IMG/VR virus record: IMGVR_UViG_3300010283_000096
Coordinates: 1-5,455 of that record
Source: a virus
Taxonomy: Duplodnaviria > Heunggongvirae > Uroviricota > Caudoviricetes
DNA: 5,455 nucleotides
Direction: 5' to 3' (one strand)
A program made the position numbers and the translations under genes. Of this stretch, positions 85-5,455 are shown piece by piece (the first letter of the stretch is position 1; the number at the start of each line of letters is the position of its first letter). The notes beneath the pieces were generated by a model. That model ran no database searches and was not told the origin of the DNA. It saw only the letters and a program-made list of their open reading frames with translations.

Positions 85-426
85 ATGAGGGGGATTATTT
101 TTCTGTTAGCTGTCTTTTCTGCGTGCAGCGCGTGGGCGGATGGCTTCACGGTTAAATGCGGTGGCTACACTATGGTTGCAAACCAGGGCGAGTTATCGAC
201 AATCAACGGTGAAAGAGTTACCTCTCAAAAAATCACCGAACTGGGTACCAATGGTTTGAAAGTAGACATGGGGCTTATGCCAGCCAAAGACGGTAACAAC
301 TACGGCTTTGAATACATTCGTCGCCCTGGTACCGAAACGCGATTCCTGAATGTGCAACTGCTGCAGAACAGCATGGATGCGCCGAAAATCATCGGTTCCT
401 TTCCATGCAAAAAGATTGTTGATTAA
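85..426 (+). CDS. Small secreted protein or putative lipoprotein (113 aa), unknown function
   Basis: ATG at 85 is preceded by a Shine-Dalgarno-like AAGGGGA (72-78). The N-terminus MRGIIFLLAVFSACSAWADG is a typical signal peptide (positive residue, hydrophobic core). It has two possible processing sites: an AXA signal peptidase I site (AWA|DG) and a weak lipobox-like FSAC. The mature part is hydrophilic with no further hydrophobic helix. GC is similar to the tail genes (about 60% in a sampled block). Confidence 0.7.
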   Translation: MRGIIFLLAVFSACSAWADGFTVKCGGYTMVANQGELSTINGERVTSQKITELGTNGLKVDMGLMPAKDGNNYGFEYIRRPGTETRFLNVQLLQNSMDAPKIIGSFPCKKIVD

Positions 427-735: not shown

Positions 736-759
736 AACCCGCCACCCGGCGGGTTTTTT
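736..759 (+). terminator. Rho-independent terminator (stem CCCGCC/GGCGGG, loop ACCC, followed by TTTTTT)
   Basis: CCCGCC (738-743) pairs perfectly with GGCGGG (748-753) around a 4-nt loop, extended by two A-T pairs, and is followed immediately by a six-T run (754-759). It lies 17 nt after the stop codon of the 480..719 gene. Confidence 0.8.
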
Positions 760-778
760 GCTTTCTGGAGCCTACCAA

Positions 779-1531
779 ATGGCAGTATCTGACCAGACCC
801 GCAGCGGCGACCTTGCCGAAACATTCAAATCTGAACGGGAAACAACAAAGAATCAGATCCGTGTCGCCTTGCCTGGCATTATTCAGTCATTCGATCCTGA
901 TGCGGTGACGGCGGTTGTGCAGCCTGCTATCCGTTCGGTTGAAAAGGATAATGACGGCAACCGCATTACCAAAAATTACCCGTTGCTGGTGGATGTGCCA
1001 GTGGTATTCCCGCGCGGCGGAGGATGCACGCTAACGTTCCCGGTTAAAGCCGGTGATGAATGTTTGGTGATTTTTGCCGATCGTTGTATTGATTTCTGGT
1101 GGCAGAGCGGCGGGATACAGGAGCCGGTTGATGACAGAATGCATGATTTATCGGATGCGTTTTGTATTGTCGGTCCCCAGTCGCAGGCGAGGAAGATTAG
1201 CGGTATTAATACCAGTGCCACACAGTTGCGTAGTGACGACGGCAGCACCTATTTTGAGCTTAATCCTGATACCAGGAAAATTAAAATTGTCGCTCCGGGG
1301 GGGCTTGATGTGGTTGCCCCCCTGGCTGATTTTTCTGAGAAAGTAACCATTCATGGCCTGTTAACCTGGATGGGTGGCATGGTGGGGTCTGTTGTTTCTG
1401 GTGTGGCTTCAAAAATCACTGGTGCTGTTGAGTTCTTGGGGAGCGTGAAGGCTAACGGCAAGCCAATCGATGATACGCACACTCATGGTGGTGTTCAGCG
1501 CGGTGGAAGCAATACCGACGGAGTAAACTGA
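779..1531 (+). CDS. Baseplate central spike/hub protein, gpV-like (P2 gpV / phi92 gp138 class), about 250 aa
   Basis: The N-terminal half (RVALPGIIQSFDPD...VDVPVVFPRGGGCTLTFPVKAGDECLVIFADRCIDFWWQSG) has the character of the gpV/gp5 OB-fold domain. The C-terminus carries a Gly-rich stretch and a His-x-His apex motif (DDTHTHGGVQRGGSNTDG), comparable to the P2 gpV C-terminus as I recall it. The ATG at 779 with GGAG (765-768) about 10 nt upstream is preferred over the TTG at 758 given by the ORF track, which sits inside the terminator T-run. The stop overlaps the next start (TGATG). Confidence 0.8.
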   Translation: MAVSDQTRSGDLAETFKSERETTKNQIRVALPGIIQSFDPDAVTAVVQPAIRSVEKDNDGNRITKNYPLLVDVPVVFPRGGGCTLTFPVKAGDECLVIFADRCIDFWWQSGGIQEPVDDRMHDLSDAFCIVGPQSQARKISGINTSATQLRSDDGSTYFELNPDTRKIKIVAPGGLDVVAPLADFSEKVTIHGLLTWMGGMVGSVVSGVASKITGAVEFLGSVKANGKPIDDTHTHGGVQRGGSNTDGVN

Positions 1532-1884
1532 TGCGATACAGACGTGAAGACGCCGATGGCGATTACACCTTTGGCAGCGGTGATGACACCTGGCTGATTA
1601 ACTCACCGGAGGCCGTGGCACAGGCGGTAAAAACGCGATTCGAATTGTGGTATGGGCAATGGTTTCTCGACACCACCGAGGGGACTCCGTGGATCCAGTC
1701 CGTACTCGGTAAGCAGAAGCCGGAAACCTACAACCTGGCGATCCGTAAGCGCATCCTCGAAACGCGGGGCGTTAAATCAATCCTCTCTTTCAATACGACG
1801 GTGGATACCACGACCCGACGTGTCAGGTTTTCCGCTGAAATCGACACTCTTTATGGAATAACGACTGTTACATCGGAGGCGTAA
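1531..1884 (+). CDS. Small baseplate-associated protein (117 aa), positional equivalent of P2 gpW / Mu gp46 / gp25-like wedge subunit; family not confirmed
   Basis: Coding is well supported: GGAG lies 8 nt upstream, and both ends are coupled by overlapping stop/start codons (TGATG at 1529-1533, TAATG at 1882-1886). The size and position between a gpV-like and a Baseplate J gene are typical of gp25/W-like proteins. I do not recognise canonical GPW motifs in the sequence, so the functional call is positional. Confidence 0.6.
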   Translation: MRYRREDADGDYTFGSGDDTWLINSPEAVAQAVKTRFELWYGQWFLDTTEGTPWIQSVLGKQKPETYNLAIRKRILETRGVKSILSFNTTVDTTTRRVRFSAEIDTLYGITTVTSEA

Positions 1885-3083
1885 TGACTCTGAACCTTGA
1901 TTCTCTCGGTTTATCTGCAAAGGTAACCGCGGAGGGGATCAGTGCGCCTGATTATCAGACGATACTCAGCACCCTGATTAGCTATTTTCAGCAGATTTAT
2001 GGTAGTGATGCCTACCTCGAACCGGACAGTAAAGACGGTCAGATGGTGGCTCTGATGGCGCTGGCGATTCATGATGCCAATAATACGGCGATAACTGTCT
2101 ACAACTGTTTTTCACCGGCAACCGGCTATGGGGCTGCACTGACCAGTAACGTGAAAATAAATGGTATTTCACGTAAAGGCGCGACGAACTCTACGGTTGA
2201 TTTGCTTCTTACAGGAACTGCCGGAACAACCATCATTAATGGCAGCGTGAAAGACAGTAATAATGTGATATGGCGTTTGCCTGCTTCAGTGGTGGTCGGC
2301 GTGGATGGTACAGTGATGGTGACCGCAAAATGTTCCGTCAGTGGTGCAGTGGCGGCGCTGGCTGGAACTATCACTGAAATTAATACGCCAACCCGTGGCT
2401 GGGTTTCGGTAACCAATCCTGCTGCAGCTACTGTAGGCACTCCGGCAGAAACTGATGCGGAGTTACGTATCCGCCAGTCGCAAAGTGTTGCGTTGCCATC
2501 AATAACCCCATTTGAAGCACTGGATGGTGCTGTTTCTAATGTTACCGGGGTAACCCGCCACAAACTCTATGAAAACGATACTGGTTCGGAGGATGGTAAC
2601 GGGTTACCGCCACACTCTGTTGCTGTAATTGTGGATGGCGGTGATGTGACGGATATTGCTCAGGCTATCAGAGGGAATAAAGGCCAGGGGACAGCCACTC
2701 ACGGTACAACATCCGTTACGGTTCCGGATAAATACGGCAATCCCCATGTAATCAAATTCTCGCGTTCCAGTGATGTGCCTGTTTATGCCCGGATTAAATT
2801 AAAAGTTTTTACGGGTTATACCTCACAGATAGGGCAGCAGATCCAGCAGGCTATTTCCGACTATATCAATAGTCTGATGATTGGTGATTCGGTCCTTTTA
2901 AGTCGCATTTACTCACCGGCGAATCTTGGCGTGGTGAGTGGCGGAAATGCACGCTATTACGATATTCAGGAACTGACGATTGGTAAATCCCCGGGGGCTT
3001 TGTCGTCATCAAACATTGATATCAGATATAACGAATCTGCGTCCTGTGCCCCGGAAAATATCGTTATAACGGTGGAGTCATGA
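1884..3083 (+). CDS. Baseplate wedge protein, Baseplate J family (P2 gpJ / Mu gp47 / T4 gp6-like), 399 aa
   Basis: Size, position after the gpV-like and small baseplate genes, and overall sequence character match Baseplate J-family proteins. The start is coupled to the upstream gene (GGAGG 1876-1880, TAATG overlap) and the 3' end overlaps the next gene (ATGA at 3080-3083). E. coli e14 jayE is a remembered analogue. Confidence 0.8.
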   Translation: MTLNLDSLGLSAKVTAEGISAPDYQTILSTLISYFQQIYGSDAYLEPDSKDGQMVALMALAIHDANNTAITVYNCFSPATGYGAALTSNVKINGISRKGATNSTVDLLLTGTAGTTIINGSVKDSNNVIWRLPASVVVGVDGTVMVTAKCSVSGAVAALAGTITEINTPTRGWVSVTNPAAATVGTPAETDAELRIRQSQSVALPSITPFEALDGAVSNVTGVTRHKLYENDTGSEDGNGLPPHSVAVIVDGGDVTDIAQAIRGNKGQGTATHGTTSVTVPDKYGNPHVIKFSRSSDVPVYARIKLKVFTGYTSQIGQQIQQAISDYINSLMIGDSVLLSRIYSPANLGVVSGGNARYYDIQELTIGKSPGALSSSNIDIRYNESASCAPENIVITVES

Positions 3084-3760
3084 GCAAATACACCGAACTA
3101 ATCACGAACTATCACGCCACCAAACCTAAATTTCTTGCACATGCTGATCTGATGACCAGGCCGCTTATTGATGTTGCGGCTGCCACCAGAGGGCTGATTA
3201 CTGCATTTGATATTGACTCTGCGGTTGGTGTGCAACTTGACATTCTGGGATTGTGGATCGGACGTAGCCGTGTTGTCAGCCAGCCTATCTCAGGTGTCTA
3301 TTTCAGCTGGGATACCGACGGGCTTGGATATGATCAAGGTGTATGGCAGGGGCCATACGATCCTGATTCCGGATACATGTACCTCAGCGATGAAACTTAT
3401 CGTGTCATCCTTAAAGCGAAGATTGCGATTAATAACTGGGACGGACGGAATGATTCGCTTCCAGCAATTCTTGACGCTGCAACAGCAGGATCAGGGCTGC
3501 GAATGCAGATAGTCGATAACCAGGACATGACGATATCGGTCTGGGTCTTTCCTGATACTGATATTTCAGATGTATCGCGTGAGTTAATTGCGGCAATTAA
3601 ACAGGGGTATCTAACAGTAAAAGCCGCCGGGGTATGGGCGGGGGGCATTGAAACACCTTCGGTGGAAACTCCATCGGAAGGCTCTAAATTTTTTGGTTTT
3701 GATATGGATAACGAATTCATCAGTTGTTTTGATGTAGGGGCATGGGGAGTATTACTCTGA
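3080..3760 (+). CDS. Baseplate wedge / tail-fiber attachment protein, gpI-like (P2 gpI / Mu gp48 position; possibly DUF2313/YmfQ-like), 226 aa
   Basis: The ORF overlaps the Baseplate J gene by 4 nt (ATGA) and sits immediately upstream of the tail fiber gene. This is the conserved position of gpI-type proteins that follow Baseplate J in P2/Mu-type baseplates. Family membership is inferred from synteny and size, not from a recognised motif. Confidence 0.65.
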
Positions 3761-4464
3761 TGGCGAAAAATGACTTTAAAGCGTTTGCAACTGATCGAAA
3801 TGCCAATGTTATGTCGCAGGAGGAATGGGAAGCGTTGCCTGCGCTTATATCCGGATTTACAGCAGGGAAAGCATCCAGTGCGCAAGTCAATAAGGTTATT
3901 CGGCAGGCCAGCTTTATTGCTGCAGCTCTGGCCCAGTTTGTAAGTGATAAAACGCAACGGGATGTGCTTGATAATGGTGATCTGCCCGGTTTTGTTGAAT
4001 TGCTGGGATCGGGGTTTGCTGTTGAATACCTGAGCCGCAAGAATCCGTTTGGCGATATCAAATCGGATGGCACGGTGAAAACGGCTCTCGAAAACCTTGG
4101 TTTGGGAGAAGCGGCAAAACGGAATGTGGGGACAGGGGAAAATCAGATCCCCGATATGAGTTCTTTCGCTTCGTTGAGCGGTGAATCGGGTTACCAGCGT
4201 CTCCCAAGTGGGAGGCTTATTGTCTGGGGACGTGCGATGGTTTCCTCATCTTCAAATACGATTACGCTTATTGCTTCTTTTGACAATACAAATTATCGCG
4301 TTATTGTATCCGATACCGGATCTGGCTGTATTCCGTACGGTGCATCACCGTTAAGTGGTTCGACATTCAAACTGACCAGAGCTGGTCGTTCCTATAATAG
4401 CGATGGAACGTTACAAACAATCTCTGGTCCATCTGCTGTTAATTACATCGCAATAGGTAATTAA
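3760..4464 (+). CDS. Short tail fiber / receptor-binding protein (about 235 aa)
   Basis: It is immediately followed by a Tfa-type chaperone gene and preceded by baseplate wedge genes. The C-terminal half is Ser/Gly/Thr/Asn-rich ([42 protein letters not shown]...), typical of fiber distal domains. The ATG at 3760 (GGGGAG at 3744-3749, 10 nt upstream; overlaps the upstream stop as TGATG) is preferred over the in-frame ATG at 3742, which lies inside the previous gene. Confidence 0.75.
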
Positions 4465-4465
4465 T

Positions 4466-4867
4466 ATGTTTTATTCTAAGAGTGCCAACGGTTTTTTCGA
4501 TTCTTTATCTGCTCTTCCCGATGATTCATTAGAAATATCCGATGAGAAATATGCTGAAATGATCGAGGGTATCGAGGCAGGAAAAGTTTTATCTTCAGAC
4601 CATGAAGGCTATCCAGTTTTATCAGATCTTAAGTTGACAAAGGAACAGCAAATCAGTGAGGTAATGATTGTTAAAAATGGCAAAATTGCAGATGCTATGT
4701 CAGAAATTAGCGTATGGCAAACAGAGTTACAATTGGGGATCATAAGCGATAACGACAAAGTCAGTCTGATAAACTGGCTTTTGTACATTAAAGAACTGCA
4801 AGCCGTTGACACTTCAACGTCTCCTGACGTTATATGGCCTATGCCTCCGATAGTTCAGGACAGATGA
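4466..4867 (+). CDS. Tail fiber assembly chaperone, Tfa family (lambda Tfa / P2 gpG / Mu gpU class), 133 aa
   Basis: The C-terminal motif SLINWLLYIKELQAVDTSTSPDVIWPMPP closely resembles the conserved Tfa C-terminus (lambda Tfa ends ...[29 protein letters not shown] as I recall it). The gene starts 1 nt after the fiber stop codon. Its GC (about 37% in a sampled block) is lower than the baseplate genes, consistent with a swappable host-range cassette. Confidence 0.85.
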   Translation: MFYSKSANGFFDSLSALPDDSLEISDEKYAEMIEGIEAGKVLSSDHEGYPVLSDLKLTKEQQISEVMIVKNGKIADAMSEISVWQTELQLGIISDNDKVSLINWLLYIKELQAVDTSTSPDVIWPMPPIVQDR

Positions 4868-4873
4868 TATCCG

Positions 4874-4905
4874 ATGCACTGGAACAATAGATACATCCAG
4901 TGCAT
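4874..4905. repeat. Perfect 10-bp inverted repeat (ATGCACTGGA / TCCAGTGCAT) with a 12-nt spacer, between convergent genes; possible terminator hairpin or protein-binding palindrome
   Basis: Arm 1 (4874-4883, ATGCACTGGA) and arm 2 (4896-4905, TCCAGTGCAT) are exact reverse complements. The repeat lies 7 nt after the Tfa stop and about 45 nt from the stop of the convergent minus-strand gene. There is no clean T-run on either side, so it is not a canonical intrinsic terminator. Confidence 0.5.
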
Positions 4906-4948
4906 ATAATATTAACTGTTCAGTAATTAATACAGATAATCTTTAACT

Positions 4949-5455
4949 TTAAATATGTGCGTACATTTTTATTTTTTTGTAAATTGGTATGGTGATATAA
5001 TATGAAGCCATAAAGCAAATCGCGGTAAGCATTATTACCTGGATTCCATTCGCTGGCGCTAGTTTTATACCAAACAAACTACCTGCTTCGGTAATTAATA
5101 ACTTTATTGTTTGTTCTGTGCCACATAGAACTAGCGTATTTCTACCTAATTCATAAAAAGGTTTAAATACAAGTAATCGAGACACAAAAATAGACGAGAT
5201 AATTAATGAGAATGTTATAGTAATATTAATCACAGATAATATATATTTGTTGCTTGAAATAGCATAAATATCCTTAACCCCAAACATATATAGATATGAT
5301 GAAACCAAAACACTAATTGTGATTGCTAGTAAAAATCCAACACCATTCATTATAAATGACTTGGAACTTTGCAGGATATAACTAGATAAAAATTTTCCTA
5401 ATGAATAATACAGGAGATATACAAGGGCGCTGTCAACGTTAAAAAAATAAGCAGG
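4949..5455 (-). CDS. AT-rich gene for a polytopic integral membrane protein (C-terminal 169 codons visible; N-terminus beyond the window edge), unknown function
   Basis: The minus-strand ORF stops at 4949-4951. Its reading frame remains open upstream of the ATG at 5350 through to the window end at 5455 (no stop codon when I translate 5351-5455 in frame), so the gene most likely starts outside the window. The protein is very hydrophobic with at least three predicted helices (GFLLAITISVLVSSYLYMF, ILSVINITITFSLIISSIFV, IQVIMLTAICFMASYYITIPIY) and is rich in I/L/F/Y/K/N. Local GC is about 25%, against about 55% in the tail genes. Confidence 0.65.
   Translation of the reverse strand, partial: PAYFFNVDSALVYLLYYSLGKFLSSYILQSSKSFIMNGVGFLLAITISVLVSSYLYMFGVKDIYAISSNKYILSVINITITFSLIISSIFVSRLLVFKPFYELGRNTLVLCGTEQTIKLLITEAGSLFGIKLAPANGIQVIMLTAICFMASYYITIPIYKKIKMYAHI

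What the first reader, a model, noticed from the sequence alone, without database searches (positions are those of the whole stretch)
4868..5455. Abrupt GC drop into an AT-rich cargo gene for an uncharacterised polytopic membrane protein, convergent with the tail-fiber module
GC falls from about 55% in the baseplate genes to about 25% right after the Tfa gene (hand counts on 60-nt blocks). The AT-rich segment carries a minus-strand ORF that runs off the window, encoding a multi-helix membrane protein I cannot assign to a family. The position just distal to the tail fiber/Tfa genes is a classic moron or accessory slot in prophages, where superinfection exclusion, abortive infection, O-antigen modification and other defence genes tend to accumulate. 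The composition and extreme hydrophobicity are also reminiscent of Wzy/Wzx-type or acyltransferase-type envelope enzymes. This is the strongest candidate in the window for an undescribed system, but only its C-terminal part is visible.
Basis: partly seen in the sequence, partly recalled or inferred. Interest (0 to 1): 0.65.

Follow-up and report, generated by a model that had tools for sequence, protein, structure and literature searches.

The report
Prophage sugar O-acetyltransferase beside tail fibre
The AT-rich gene running off the end of the window is the last half of a prophage-carried membrane acetyltransferase, of the kind temperate phages use to acetylate their host's surface sugars; it is an uncharacterised member of a well-known family, not a new system.

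Summary
After the Tfa gene, GC falls to 30% (baseplate and fibre genes 49%, Tfa 39%). A minus-strand ORF (4949-5455) stays open to the window edge. Eight E. coli contigs match the window at 98.5-100% and give the full gene: 331 aa, Pfam Acyl_transf_3 (PF01757) over residues 7-316. The predicted structure is confident, and its only strong PDB matches are HGSNAT and GWT1, the transmembrane acyltransferase fold. The family's D-x-x-[R/K]-x10-H and FFxxSG motifs are present.

The closest characterised relative is OacD of Shigella phage SfII (35% identity). OacD 6-O-acetylates GlcNAc of the O-antigen and sits in the same slot, convergent with Tfa. Sf6 oac and uncharacterised relatives in other prophages also lie beside the receptor-binding gene.

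The gene is phage cargo, not chromosomal flank. The block of fibre tip, Tfa and acyltransferase is 99.6-100% identical in two unrelated myovirus-type prophages at several integration sites.

Relatives of the window's phage carry an invertible fibre segment plus pin there. Here only the left crossover site and the last ~45 pin codons remain.

Verdict: a new member of a known kind (lysogenic-conversion O-acetyltransferase). The acceptor sugar is unknown. Interest is low to moderate.

The parts
4949..5455 (-). 3' half of the acyltransferase-3 (AT3-only) gene: codons 164-331 plus the stop at 4949-4951. It encodes roughly the last five transmembrane helices, including the conserved N169-x-D171-S172 and G267-x3-L271-x2-C274-G275-x-E277 positions. 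The 5' half (residues 1-163, with the D10-x-x-K13-x10-H24 and F44-F45 motifs) lies beyond the window edge.
   Evidence: The frame is open to the window edge. The fragment is identical to the C-terminus of the 331-aa gene at L005 10484-11479(-), and L005 matches the window at 99.945% over 5455 nt. Pfam PF01757, E 2e-14, 53.9 bits against a cutoff of 31.
4868..4948 (.). 81-bp spacer between the convergent Tfa and acyltransferase genes. It holds a 10-bp perfect hairpin (4874-4883 / 4896-4905, 12-nt loop). This is probably a shared transcription stop or RNA-stabilising stem; it has no clear U-tract.
   Evidence: dG -22.4 kcal/mol, z -4.48, 0 of 200 shuffles as stable; minus strand, z -2.9; repeat I1. 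The consensus terminator scan did not call it.
4466..4867 (+). Tail fibre assembly chaperone (Tfa, 133 aa, Caudo_TAP), part of the mobile block.
   Evidence: Pfam PF02413 in the precomputed gene table. An exact-protein look-up found the 331-aa AT3 gene immediately downstream in all 8 places shown. It is 30% identical to SfII Tfa.
4111..4464 (+). Variable receptor-binding tip of the short tail fibre (gene 3742/3760-4464). It is specific to this block and absent from 5,426 complete E. coli genomes.
   Evidence: Megablast matches of the window in complete E. coli genomes stop at 4111-4161. There is no match at all for 4400-5455. Similarity to the SfII fibre ends just after the '...NQIPDMS' stretch.
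4085..4110 (+). 26-bp site CTCTCGAAAACCTTGGTTTGGGAGAA inside the fibre gene. It resembles the left crossover site of a Pin/Gin-type invertible fibre segment. Its right-hand partner is missing in this phage.
   Evidence: Related prophages L010 and L011 have this site plus an inverted second copy, flanking an inverted Tfa'/tip' pair and followed by pin. L005 has only the left copy and only the last ~45 codons of pin. That these are Din-family crossover sites is my own recall of hix/gix-type sequences.
4033..5455 (.). The window's share of a ~2.47-kb mobile block: conserved fibre segment, variable tip, Tfa, convergent AT3 gene, its upstream region and the pin remnant. The block continues about 1.05 kb past the window edge.
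   Evidence: This span is 100% identical in L001-L003, L006 and L007 and 99.65% in L008 (SfII/Mu-type baseplate), and is also present in L004 and L005 (Pam3/E217-type baseplate). Upstream of 4033 the two lineages share no similarity, and homology ends at L005 ~11976-12047.

Best explanation
The ORF is the C-terminal half of a 331-residue, ten-helix inner-membrane acyltransferase of the AT3 family (PF01757, 'AT3-only', with no fused SGNH domain). It is carried as lysogenic-conversion cargo by an E. coli myovirus-type prophage.

Proposed mechanism, by analogy with Oac/OacD and the OafB/HGSNAT models:
- Acetyl-CoA enters a pore in the helix bundle from the cytoplasm. It is held by basic residues (K13; K68/K70/K71 in place of the RxxR motif).
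- The acetyl group is passed at the invariant His24 (TM1) to a hydroxyl of a sugar on the periplasmic side.
- The acceptor is most probably a residue of the host's O-antigen repeat.
- The lysogen's surface is thereby changed. This alters its antigenicity and probably blocks adsorption of the same phage or of phages with the same fibre tip.

The gene has its own promoter-like site and RBS, and is transcribed towards the fibre genes. It moves between unrelated phages as one block with the fibre's receptor-binding tip and its chaperone.

Shown here: family, fold, motifs, phage location, linkage and mobility. Inferred: acetyl donor, O-antigen acceptor, exclusion phenotype.
For: Family and fold:
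- PF01757 covers residues 7-316, above Pfam's cutoff.
- The AF2 model has pLDDT 93.7 and pTM 0.91, with about 10 long helices.

Motifs:
- D10-x-x-K13-x10-H24 matches the R/K-X10-H motif, FFFVGG matches the FFxISG motif, and H24, F44, F45, G49, P75, R110 and E277 are invariant in 49 homologues.
- The motif definitions and their essentiality come from PMC9833829, PMC8952252 and PMC9558356.

Closest characterised relative:
- The SfII acyltransferase SfII_25 is 35% identical over about 95% of the length (E 3e-55).
- The literature identifies the SfII-borne acyltransferase gene as oacD, responsible for 6-O-acetylation of O-antigen GlcNAc. SfII_25 is the only acyltransferase gene seen in the SfII stretch I examined; I did not check the whole record.

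Same slot in other phages:
- SfII: fibre -> Tfa -> <-acyltransferase.
- Sf6: tailspike -> <-oac <-int attP. L001/L004 have the same layout, ending in int, tRNA-Arg(CCT) and yfdC.
- Homologues at 36-41% identity sit next to tailspike genes in epsilon15-like and lambdoid prophages.
- In IMG/VR contigs the neighbouring gene is usually a tail fibre or spike.

Mobility and integrity:
- The 2.47-kb block is 98.7-99.5% identical across loci from two phage lineages and several integration sites (its window part 4033-5455 is 99.6-100%). The ORF is intact in 8 of 8 loci, with at most 2 amino-acid changes.
- A promoter-like site TTGACT-16-GATAAT (10 of 12 matches) lies about 30 bp upstream of the ATG, and AGGA lies 7 nt before the ATG.
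Against: - No experiment has been done and the acceptor cannot be read from sequence. 35% identity to OacD does not transfer regiospecificity or even the target polymer.
- The RxxR motif, essential in Oac and OacB, is not literally present. It reads K68-F-K70-K71, and most clade members have S-F-K-R.
- PHROGs and NCBIfam have no model that matches.
- The promoter scan found fewer sites than shuffled sequence, so the promoter call is weak.
- The O-serogroup of the carrier strains could not be determined, so no association between serogroup and gene is shown.
- The fibre is a short 'gp53-like' fibre, not a tailspike with glycanase activity, so its receptor may not be O-antigen.
Confidence: 0.7

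Rival explanations
1. It is an active AT3 acyltransferase, but its acceptor is another envelope glycan rather than O-antigen: enterobacterial common antigen (as for WecH), a capsule or colanic acid, LPS core, or osmoregulated periplasmic glucans (as for OpgC). The phage's receptor would then be that polymer, or the gene would give some other fitness benefit.
For: AT3-only enzymes act on many glycans (review PMC9558356). Identity to any characterised enzyme is at most 35%. The linked fibre is a short gp53-like fibre without a recognisable depolymerase domain. Sources label several homologues only as 'fucose 4-O-acetylase-like'.
Against: Every characterised phage-borne AT3 protein covered in the papers I read (Oac, OacB, OacC, OacD, the PhiV10 enzyme, BTP1 GtrC/OafB) modifies O-antigen. 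The nearest characterised relative is an O-antigen enzyme in the same slot. The uncharacterised relatives sit beside tailspikes of epsilon15-like phages, and phages of that type use O-antigen as receptor (my knowledge).
Confidence: 0.2
2. It is a decaying or silent passenger. The gene landed in a dead invertible segment, is no longer expressed or active, and persists only because the block is young.
For: The surrounding region is visibly scarred: pin is reduced to its last ~45 codons and the right crossover site is lost. The copies are nearly identical, so purifying selection cannot be measured. Arg is replaced by Lys at motif positions. Several cluster members are truncated, at 90-221 aa.
Against: The ORF is intact in 8 of 8 long contigs, in very AT-rich DNA where stops arise easily. 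All columns invariant across the family are retained. Lys at these positions also occurs in OacD and other clade members. The short cluster members mostly come from short contigs or are labelled 'partial'. The block has spread to two phage lineages and at least four chromosomal sites.
Confidence: 0.06
3. It is a novel anti-phage defence or abortive-infection membrane effector that only resembles an acyltransferase.
For: It sits in a prophage accessory slot. In L002, L003 and L006 the neighbouring cargo includes an EcoRII-type restriction-modification pair and a GIY-YIG protein.
Against: It is a single gene with a full-length match to PF01757 and the catalytic motifs. The fold matches only transmembrane acyltransferases. 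There is no PADLOC hit. No partner gene is conserved: the block holds only the fibre tip, Tfa, AT3 and the pin remnant. Receptor acetylation is itself a known superinfection-exclusion route, so no new mechanism is needed.
Confidence: 0.03
4. The prophage ends at about 4870 and the gene is host chromosome, for example an O-antigen cluster acetyltransferase.
For: Low GC is typical of O-antigen clusters (my knowledge). The gene is the last thing visible in the window.
Against: The same gene follows the same Tfa at argW/yfdC, next to ybhB-bioA, next to dusA and beside a SPATE island. In L001 and L004 a phage integrase and the tRNA lie beyond it. It is absent from 5,426 complete E. coli genomes even at blastn sensitivity. 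A pin invertase remnant lies on its far side.
Confidence: 0.01

Closest known systems
OacD, the acyltransferase of Shigella flexneri serotype-converting phage SfII (SfII_25); it mediates 6-O-acetylation of O-antigen GlcNAc (Sun et al. 2014, cited in PMC9558356)
   Same: - AT3-only architecture of similar length (349 vs 331 aa).
- 35% identity over about 95% of the length.
- Same clade-specific motifs: W-[IV]-D-x-L-K-F-L-G-I-F-x-I-Y-L-G-H, HVPLFFF and GRNTL-x-x-CG-x-E.
- Same genomic slot, convergent with Tfa after the short tail fibre of a Mu-type baseplate module.
- The SfII fibre shares the conserved '...[42 protein letters not shown]' junction and then diverges.
   Different: - Only 35% identical, so it is a different allele or paralogue, not an orthologue.
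- The host is E. coli, not S. flexneri.
- The acceptor sugar is unknown.
- The linked fibre tip does not align and Tfa is only 30% identical.
- No gtr cluster follows. A pin remnant follows instead.
- It also occurs in a second, unrelated phage backbone.
Oac (OacA) of Shigella phage Sf6 and its relatives OacB/OacC: O-antigen rhamnose O-acetyltransferases
   Same: - AT3-only, about 333 aa, phage-borne.
- Convergent with the receptor-binding gene and followed by int and attP at argW. L001 and L004 have the same layout.
- Shares the TM1 His and the FFxxSG motif.
- According to the review, Sf6 O-acetylation blocks superinfection by Sf6.
   Different: - Only 18% identity in the multiple alignment, and it is not found by tblastn at E 1e-3.
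- Oac has a literal RxRR motif (R73/R75/R76) where this protein has K68-F-K70-K71.
- Sf6 is a P22-like podovirus with an endorhamnosidase tailspike, not a myovirus with a short fibre.
AT3/TmAT superfamily models: Salmonella OafA/OafB (AT3-SGNH) and human HGSNAT (solved structures 8JKV, 8TU9, 8VLV)
   Same: - D-x-x-[R/K]-x10-H in TM1.
- Presumed use of cytoplasmic acetyl-CoA to modify a sugar on the far side of the membrane.
   Different: - No SGNH domain, so transfer to the acceptor must be done by the AT3 domain itself or by an unknown partner. This is an open question for all AT3-only enzymes.
- 10-16% identity to the solved proteins.
Invertible tail-fibre segments with a Din-family invertase (Mu G segment/Gin, e14 P segment/Pin)
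   Same: - The window's fibre gene carries the left crossover-like site at 4085-4110.
- Sister prophages have the full arrangement: tip/Tfa, inverted Tfa'/tip', a second site and pin.
- The acyltransferase occupies the position and strand of the inverted alternative genes.
   Different: - Here the right site, the alternative tip/Tfa and all but the last ~45 codons of pin are gone.
- The segment should therefore be locked in one orientation.
- The AT3 gene is not a normal component of such segments.

Membership tests
Acyltransferase-3 (AT3, Pfam PF01757) / TmAT superfamily | Significant full-length match to the PF01757 profile | tested here: met
   E 2e-14, 53.9 bits (cutoff 31), residues 7-316 against profile positions 2-319 of 326. 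The 168-aa window fragment alone gives no hit.
Acyltransferase-3 (AT3, Pfam PF01757) / TmAT superfamily | Ten-transmembrane-helix core fold shared with HGSNAT and GWT1 | tested here: met
   [not shown]
Acyltransferase-3 (AT3, Pfam PF01757) / TmAT superfamily | R/K-X10-H motif (with the preceding D-x-x-R/K) in TM1, including the essential His | tested here: met
   D10-S-L-K13-x10-H24. H24 is invariant and D10 is conserved in at least 90% of the 49 homologues. The position aligns with the HH of Oac. Motif definition. These residues lie outside the window and were read from L005 and the 7 other loci retrieved.
Acyltransferase-3 (AT3, Pfam PF01757) / TmAT superfamily | RxxR motif on the cytoplasmic face of TM3 | tested here: inconclusive
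   The aligned positions read K68-F-K70-K71 (Oac: R73-A-R75-R76; OacD: K-F-Y-R; most clade members: S-F-K-R). Positive charge is kept, but neither Arg is. Whether Lys can substitute was not tested.
Acyltransferase-3 (AT3, Pfam PF01757) / TmAT superfamily | FFxISG-type motif after TM2 | tested here: met
   H40-V-P-L-F44-F45-F-V-G-G49. H40, V41, P42, L43, F44, F45 and G49 are invariant in 49 homologues. Motif definition.
AT3-only subclass (as opposed to AT3-SGNH fusions such as OafA, OafB and OatA) | No fused periplasmic SGNH or other domain | tested here: met
   The protein is 331 aa and PF01757 covers residues 7-316. No other Pfam hit at E<=1. The model is all-helical.
OacD orthologue (6-O-acetylation of O-antigen GlcNAc) | Orthologue-level sequence identity to SfII OacD | tested here: not met
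   35% identity. It belongs to the same clade but is not an orthologue, so I do not file it as OacD.
OacD orthologue (6-O-acetylation of O-antigen GlcNAc) | Acetylates GlcNAc O-6 of an O-antigen repeat | not testable with these tools
   Needs LPS chemistry (NMR or MS) on isogenic strains.
Phage lysogenic-conversion (serotype-converting) O-antigen modification gene | Carried inside a temperate phage genome, next to the receptor-binding gene and/or attP-int | tested here: met
   It lies between Tfa and int/tRNA-Arg in L001 and L004 and at the prophage end in L008. It is linked to the fibre tip in 8 of 8 loci. The layout is the same in SfII and Sf6.
Phage lysogenic-conversion (serotype-converting) O-antigen modification gene | Expressed from the prophage, changes the O-antigen, and blocks superinfection | not testable with these tools
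   Only a promoter-like site and an RBS were seen.
Known anti-phage defence systems (PADLOC) | Match to a defence-system protein model | tested here: not met
   No PADLOC family at E<=0.01 for the AT3 protein, Tfa or the fibre.

The most novel reading that the evidence does not exclude
The fibre's receptor-binding tip, its chaperone and the acyltransferase form one co-adapted 'bind it, then mask it' cassette. The enzyme would acetylate exactly the glycan that this tip recognises. A phage that acquires the cassette would then gain both a host range and immunity of its lysogen against phages carrying the same tip. The cassette would spread between unrelated myoviruses by recombination in the conserved flanks of Pin-type invertible fibre segments (the conserved fibre junction on the left, the pin 3' end on the right), after replacing the alternative fibre half and so freezing the switch. 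SfII (tip, Tfa, OacD) would be a second, co-diverged allele of the same cassette.
Probability: 0.35. Interest if true: 0.45.

Novelty: new member of a known kind. Interest (0 to 1): 0.25.

Why it matters
If the enzyme acetylates an E. coli O-antigen, it is a previously uncharacterised, rare serotype-modifying factor. The protein cluster holds 21 sequences seen on roughly 100 contigs, and the gene is absent from 5,426 complete RefSeq genomes. It could alter O-typing, vaccine epitopes and phage susceptibility in the strains that carry it.

It also gives a clean natural example of a receptor-binding tip and a probable receptor-modifying enzyme moving together between phage lineages, which is relevant to predicting host range and to phage-therapy resistance.

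The Lys-for-Arg version of the RxxR motif is a small natural test of what that motif needs. None of this changes current understanding, because the gene class, its genomic slot and its general mechanism are textbook for Shigella and Salmonella phages.

Tried and rejected
Searches that returned nothing:
- Pfam on the 168-aa window fragment at E<=10; the full-length gene was needed.
- Megablast of 4400-5455 against complete E. coli genomes and against phages. Blastn 'distant' mode of the gene plus its upstream region against E. coli genomes.
- An exact 36-mer in one genome per species (GTDB).
- PHROGs. NCBIfam gave only a sub-threshold, irrelevant hit (EdmS, 13.7 bits against a cutoff of 100).
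- PADLOC, a PDB sequence-profile search and Rfam on the whole window.
- tblastn against plasmids gave one weak Clostridium hit, which was uninformative.
- A literature search for CP055981, to learn a carrier's serotype.
- An exact look-up of the Pantoea homologue P0008 was not on record.

Ideas tested or considered and rejected:
- A right-hand crossover site that would make the tip-Tfa-AT3 segment still invertible. None was found in L005 9200-12300, although both sites are found in L010 and L011.
- Phase-variation signatures. Reading the ~300 bp upstream of the gene by eye, I saw a single GATC. This does not resemble the multi-GATC/OxyR pattern reported for gtr/oafB, and I did not pursue it.
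- Wzx/Wzy identity. Rejected because the only strong fold hits are transmembrane acyltransferases; transporter hits have Foldseek E>0.7 and TM-scores <=0.22.
- Host chromosomal flank. Rejected.
Full report

Yes. GC is 49.0% across the baseplate-to-fibre genes (758-4464), 38.8% in Tfa (4466-4867), 29.6% in the 81-bp spacer and 30.0% in 4949-5455. The fall is stepwise and starts inside the fibre tip and Tfa, not exactly at the Tfa stop.

On the minus strand, the frame ending at the stop 4949-4951 is open for 168 codons up to the window edge. The other two minus-strand frames are full of stops. In 30%-GC DNA this is very unlikely by chance (about 1e-6 by my arithmetic). Between the two convergent stops lies a perfect 10-bp hairpin at 4874-4905 (dG -22.4 kcal/mol, z -4.5).

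**2. Recovering the whole gene.**

The fragment alone matches no Pfam family. The region has no nucleotide match in 5,426 complete E. coli genomes or in 50,697 phage records. An exact-protein look-up of the neighbouring Tfa retrieved eight long contigs (L001-L008).
- L005 matches the window at 99.945% over all 5455 nt, and L004 matches 736-5455 at 98.5%.
- Six others are 99.65-100% identical from window position 4033 onward.
- In all eight, the ORF continues to a 331-aa protein with at most two substitutions.

The protein's sequence cluster holds 21 sequences. Every member that carries a name is from E. coli and is labelled only 'acyltransferase family protein'.

**3. What the protein is.**

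The full-length protein matches Pfam Acyl_transf_3 (PF01757) over residues 7-316 (E 2e-14, 53.9 bits against a cutoff of 31). It is very hydrophobic (GRAVY +0.87).

The family motifs are present (definitions):
- D10-x-x-K13-x10-H24, the R/K-X10-H motif with the essential His.
- H40-VPLFFF-x-G-G49, the FFxISG-type motif.
- Family-invariant P75, R110 and E277.

The RxxR motif is not literal. The aligned residues are K68-F-K70-K71 (Oac R73-A-R75-R76; OacD K-F-Y-R). The protein has 22 Lys and 6 Arg, as expected for a 30%-GC gene. There is no SGNH or other domain, so the protein is 'AT3-only'.

There are no hits in PADLOC, PHROGs, NCBIfam (none above threshold) or PDB sequences.

**4. Relatives and their contexts.**

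The only phage-database hit is the acyltransferase of Shigella phage SfII (35% identity, about 95% coverage). The literature identifies the SfII-borne gene as oacD, responsible for 6-O-acetylation of O-antigen GlcNAc.

SfII has the same gene order: Mu-type baseplate, short tail fibre, Tfa, then the acyltransferase convergent with Tfa. Sf6 has tailspike, convergent oac, int and attP. L001 and L004 have the same layout: AT3, a 385-aa integrase, tRNA-Arg(CCT), yfdC.

The nearest database homologues are only 36-42% identical. Four were inspected:
- P0005, P0029 and P0017 lie next to the tailspike in epsilon15-like prophages.
- P0007 lies next to the tailspike in a lambdoid Salmonella prophage.

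IMG/VR holds 23 viral contigs with relatives at 24-43% identity over near-full-length matches (one partial match at 52%). Seven are SfII-like. Of ten other neighbouring genes scanned, six are clearly tail fibre or spike proteins.

**5. It is phage cargo and part of a mobile block.**

Window 4033-5455, continuing about 1.05 kb beyond the edge to L005 ~12040, is one ~2.47-kb block. It contains the conserved fibre junction, the variable fibre tip, Tfa, the AT3 gene, its upstream region and a pin remnant.

The block is 98.7-99.5% identical across loci from two prophage lineages that share nothing upstream; its window part (4033-5455) is 99.6-100% identical:
- SfII/Mu-type tails (gp44-48 homologues; L001-3 and L006-8).
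- Pam3/E217-type tails (L004, L005 and the window).

The block sits at different chromosomal sites: argW/yfdC, next to ybhB-bioA, next to dusA, and beside a SPATE autotransporter island. This excludes the 'flanking chromosome' reading.

In complete E. coli genomes the window's phage backbone is common: 2,099 genomes have a match, and the best matches extend only to 4111-4161. There the sister prophages carry a Pin-type invertible fibre segment: tip/Tfa, inverted Tfa'/tip', and pin, flanked by two inverted 26-bp sites.

The window retains only the left site (4085-4110, CTCTCGAAAACCTTGGTTTGGGAGAA). L005 has no right site and only the last ~45 codons of pin ('...KLTPEQWEQAGRLIASGVPRQKVAIIYDVGVSTLYKKFPVGDK*'). 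The AT-rich acyltransferase gene therefore replaced the alternative fibre half and the recombinase, which locks the fibre in one form.

Compared with SfII, the fibre is near-identical up to '...NQIPDMS' and then diverges. Tfa is 30% identical and the acyltransferase 35% identical. SfII thus carries a co-diverged allele of the same three-gene arrangement.

**6. Most likely mechanism.**

Shown: this is an intact AT3-only transmembrane acyltransferase with the catalytic His and pore motifs. It is phage-borne, linked to the receptor-binding tip, and has an AGGA RBS and a promoter-like TTGACT-16-GATAAT site upstream.

Inferred from the family: cytoplasmic acetyl-CoA enters the helix-bundle pore, and the acetyl group is transferred at His24 to a sugar hydroxyl on the periplasmic side.

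Inferred from OacD, Oac and the genomic slot: the acceptor is an O-antigen sugar, and the modification changes the serotype and hinders adsorption of phages with the same tip.

I put the family assignment at about 0.97. The whole statement, including the O-antigen acceptor, I put at about 0.7.

**7. Rivals.**
- Another envelope glycan as acceptor (0.2).
- A silent or decaying passenger (0.06).
- A novel defence effector (0.03).
- Host chromosomal gene (0.01, refuted).

**8. Novelty and score.**

This is a new, uncharacterised and rare member of a well-known kind, phage lysogenic-conversion O-acetyltransferases of the OacD-like clade. The modestly interesting extras are the three-gene 'tip + chaperone + acyltransferase' block shared between two unrelated phage lineages, its origin by replacement of half of an invertible fibre segment, and the Lys-only version of the RxxR motif. 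Interest is 0.25.

Noticed in passing
window 4085-4110; L010 9085-9110 and 10953-10978; L011 9085-9110 and 11024-11049; L005 ~11816-11941: The fibre gene contains a 26-bp site that looks like a Pin/Gin-type crossover site. Sister E. coli prophages have two inverted copies flanking an invertible tip/Tfa segment, followed by pin. The window's phage keeps only the left site and the last ~45 codons of pin, so its fibre switch appears frozen.
   Followed up: yes
window 85-426 and 480-719 (GC 36-42% around 400-800): Two small ORFs sit in a lower-GC pocket between baseplate genes. One is a 113-aa protein with a signal-peptide-like N-terminus (MRGIIFLLAVFSACSAWA|DG) and no Pfam family. The other is a 79-aa DUF4282 membrane protein. 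In L004 the same slot holds different genes (256 aa and 131 aa), so this is a second variable cargo slot inside the tail module.
   Followed up: partly
L002, L003 and L006, ~11999-15861 (just beyond the acyltransferase block): In three SfII-type prophages the block is followed by a LEM-3-like GIY-YIG nuclease gene, a cytosine DNA methylase and an EcoRII-type restriction enzyme. This is further defence-type cargo at the same prophage end.
   Followed up: no
L001/L004 12133-13529; L007 12045-14578; L008 12332-14156: The same block lies at different attachment sites. In L001 and L004 it is next to a 385-aa integrase, tRNA-Arg(CCT) and yfdC, which is the Sf6-type layout. In L007 it is next to dinI, an integrase and dusA. 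In L008 it is directly next to ybhB-bioA.
   Followed up: partly
L005 10484-11479 (protein residues 13, 68, 70, 71): Family positions that are Arg in Oac and OafB are Lys here (K13; K68-F-K70-K71). The protein has 22 Lys against 6 Arg, which fits the codon pressure of a 30%-GC gene. This may be a natural test of whether the RxxR motif needs Arg.
   Followed up: partly
L005 12271-18890; L006 16708-20402: Beyond the prophage end in L005 and L006 lie a GNAT acetyltransferase (L005 only), a truncated integrase (112 aa), a MarR regulator and a 1376-aa SPATE-type serine-protease autotransporter. Together these look like a pathogenicity-island remnant.
   Followed up: no
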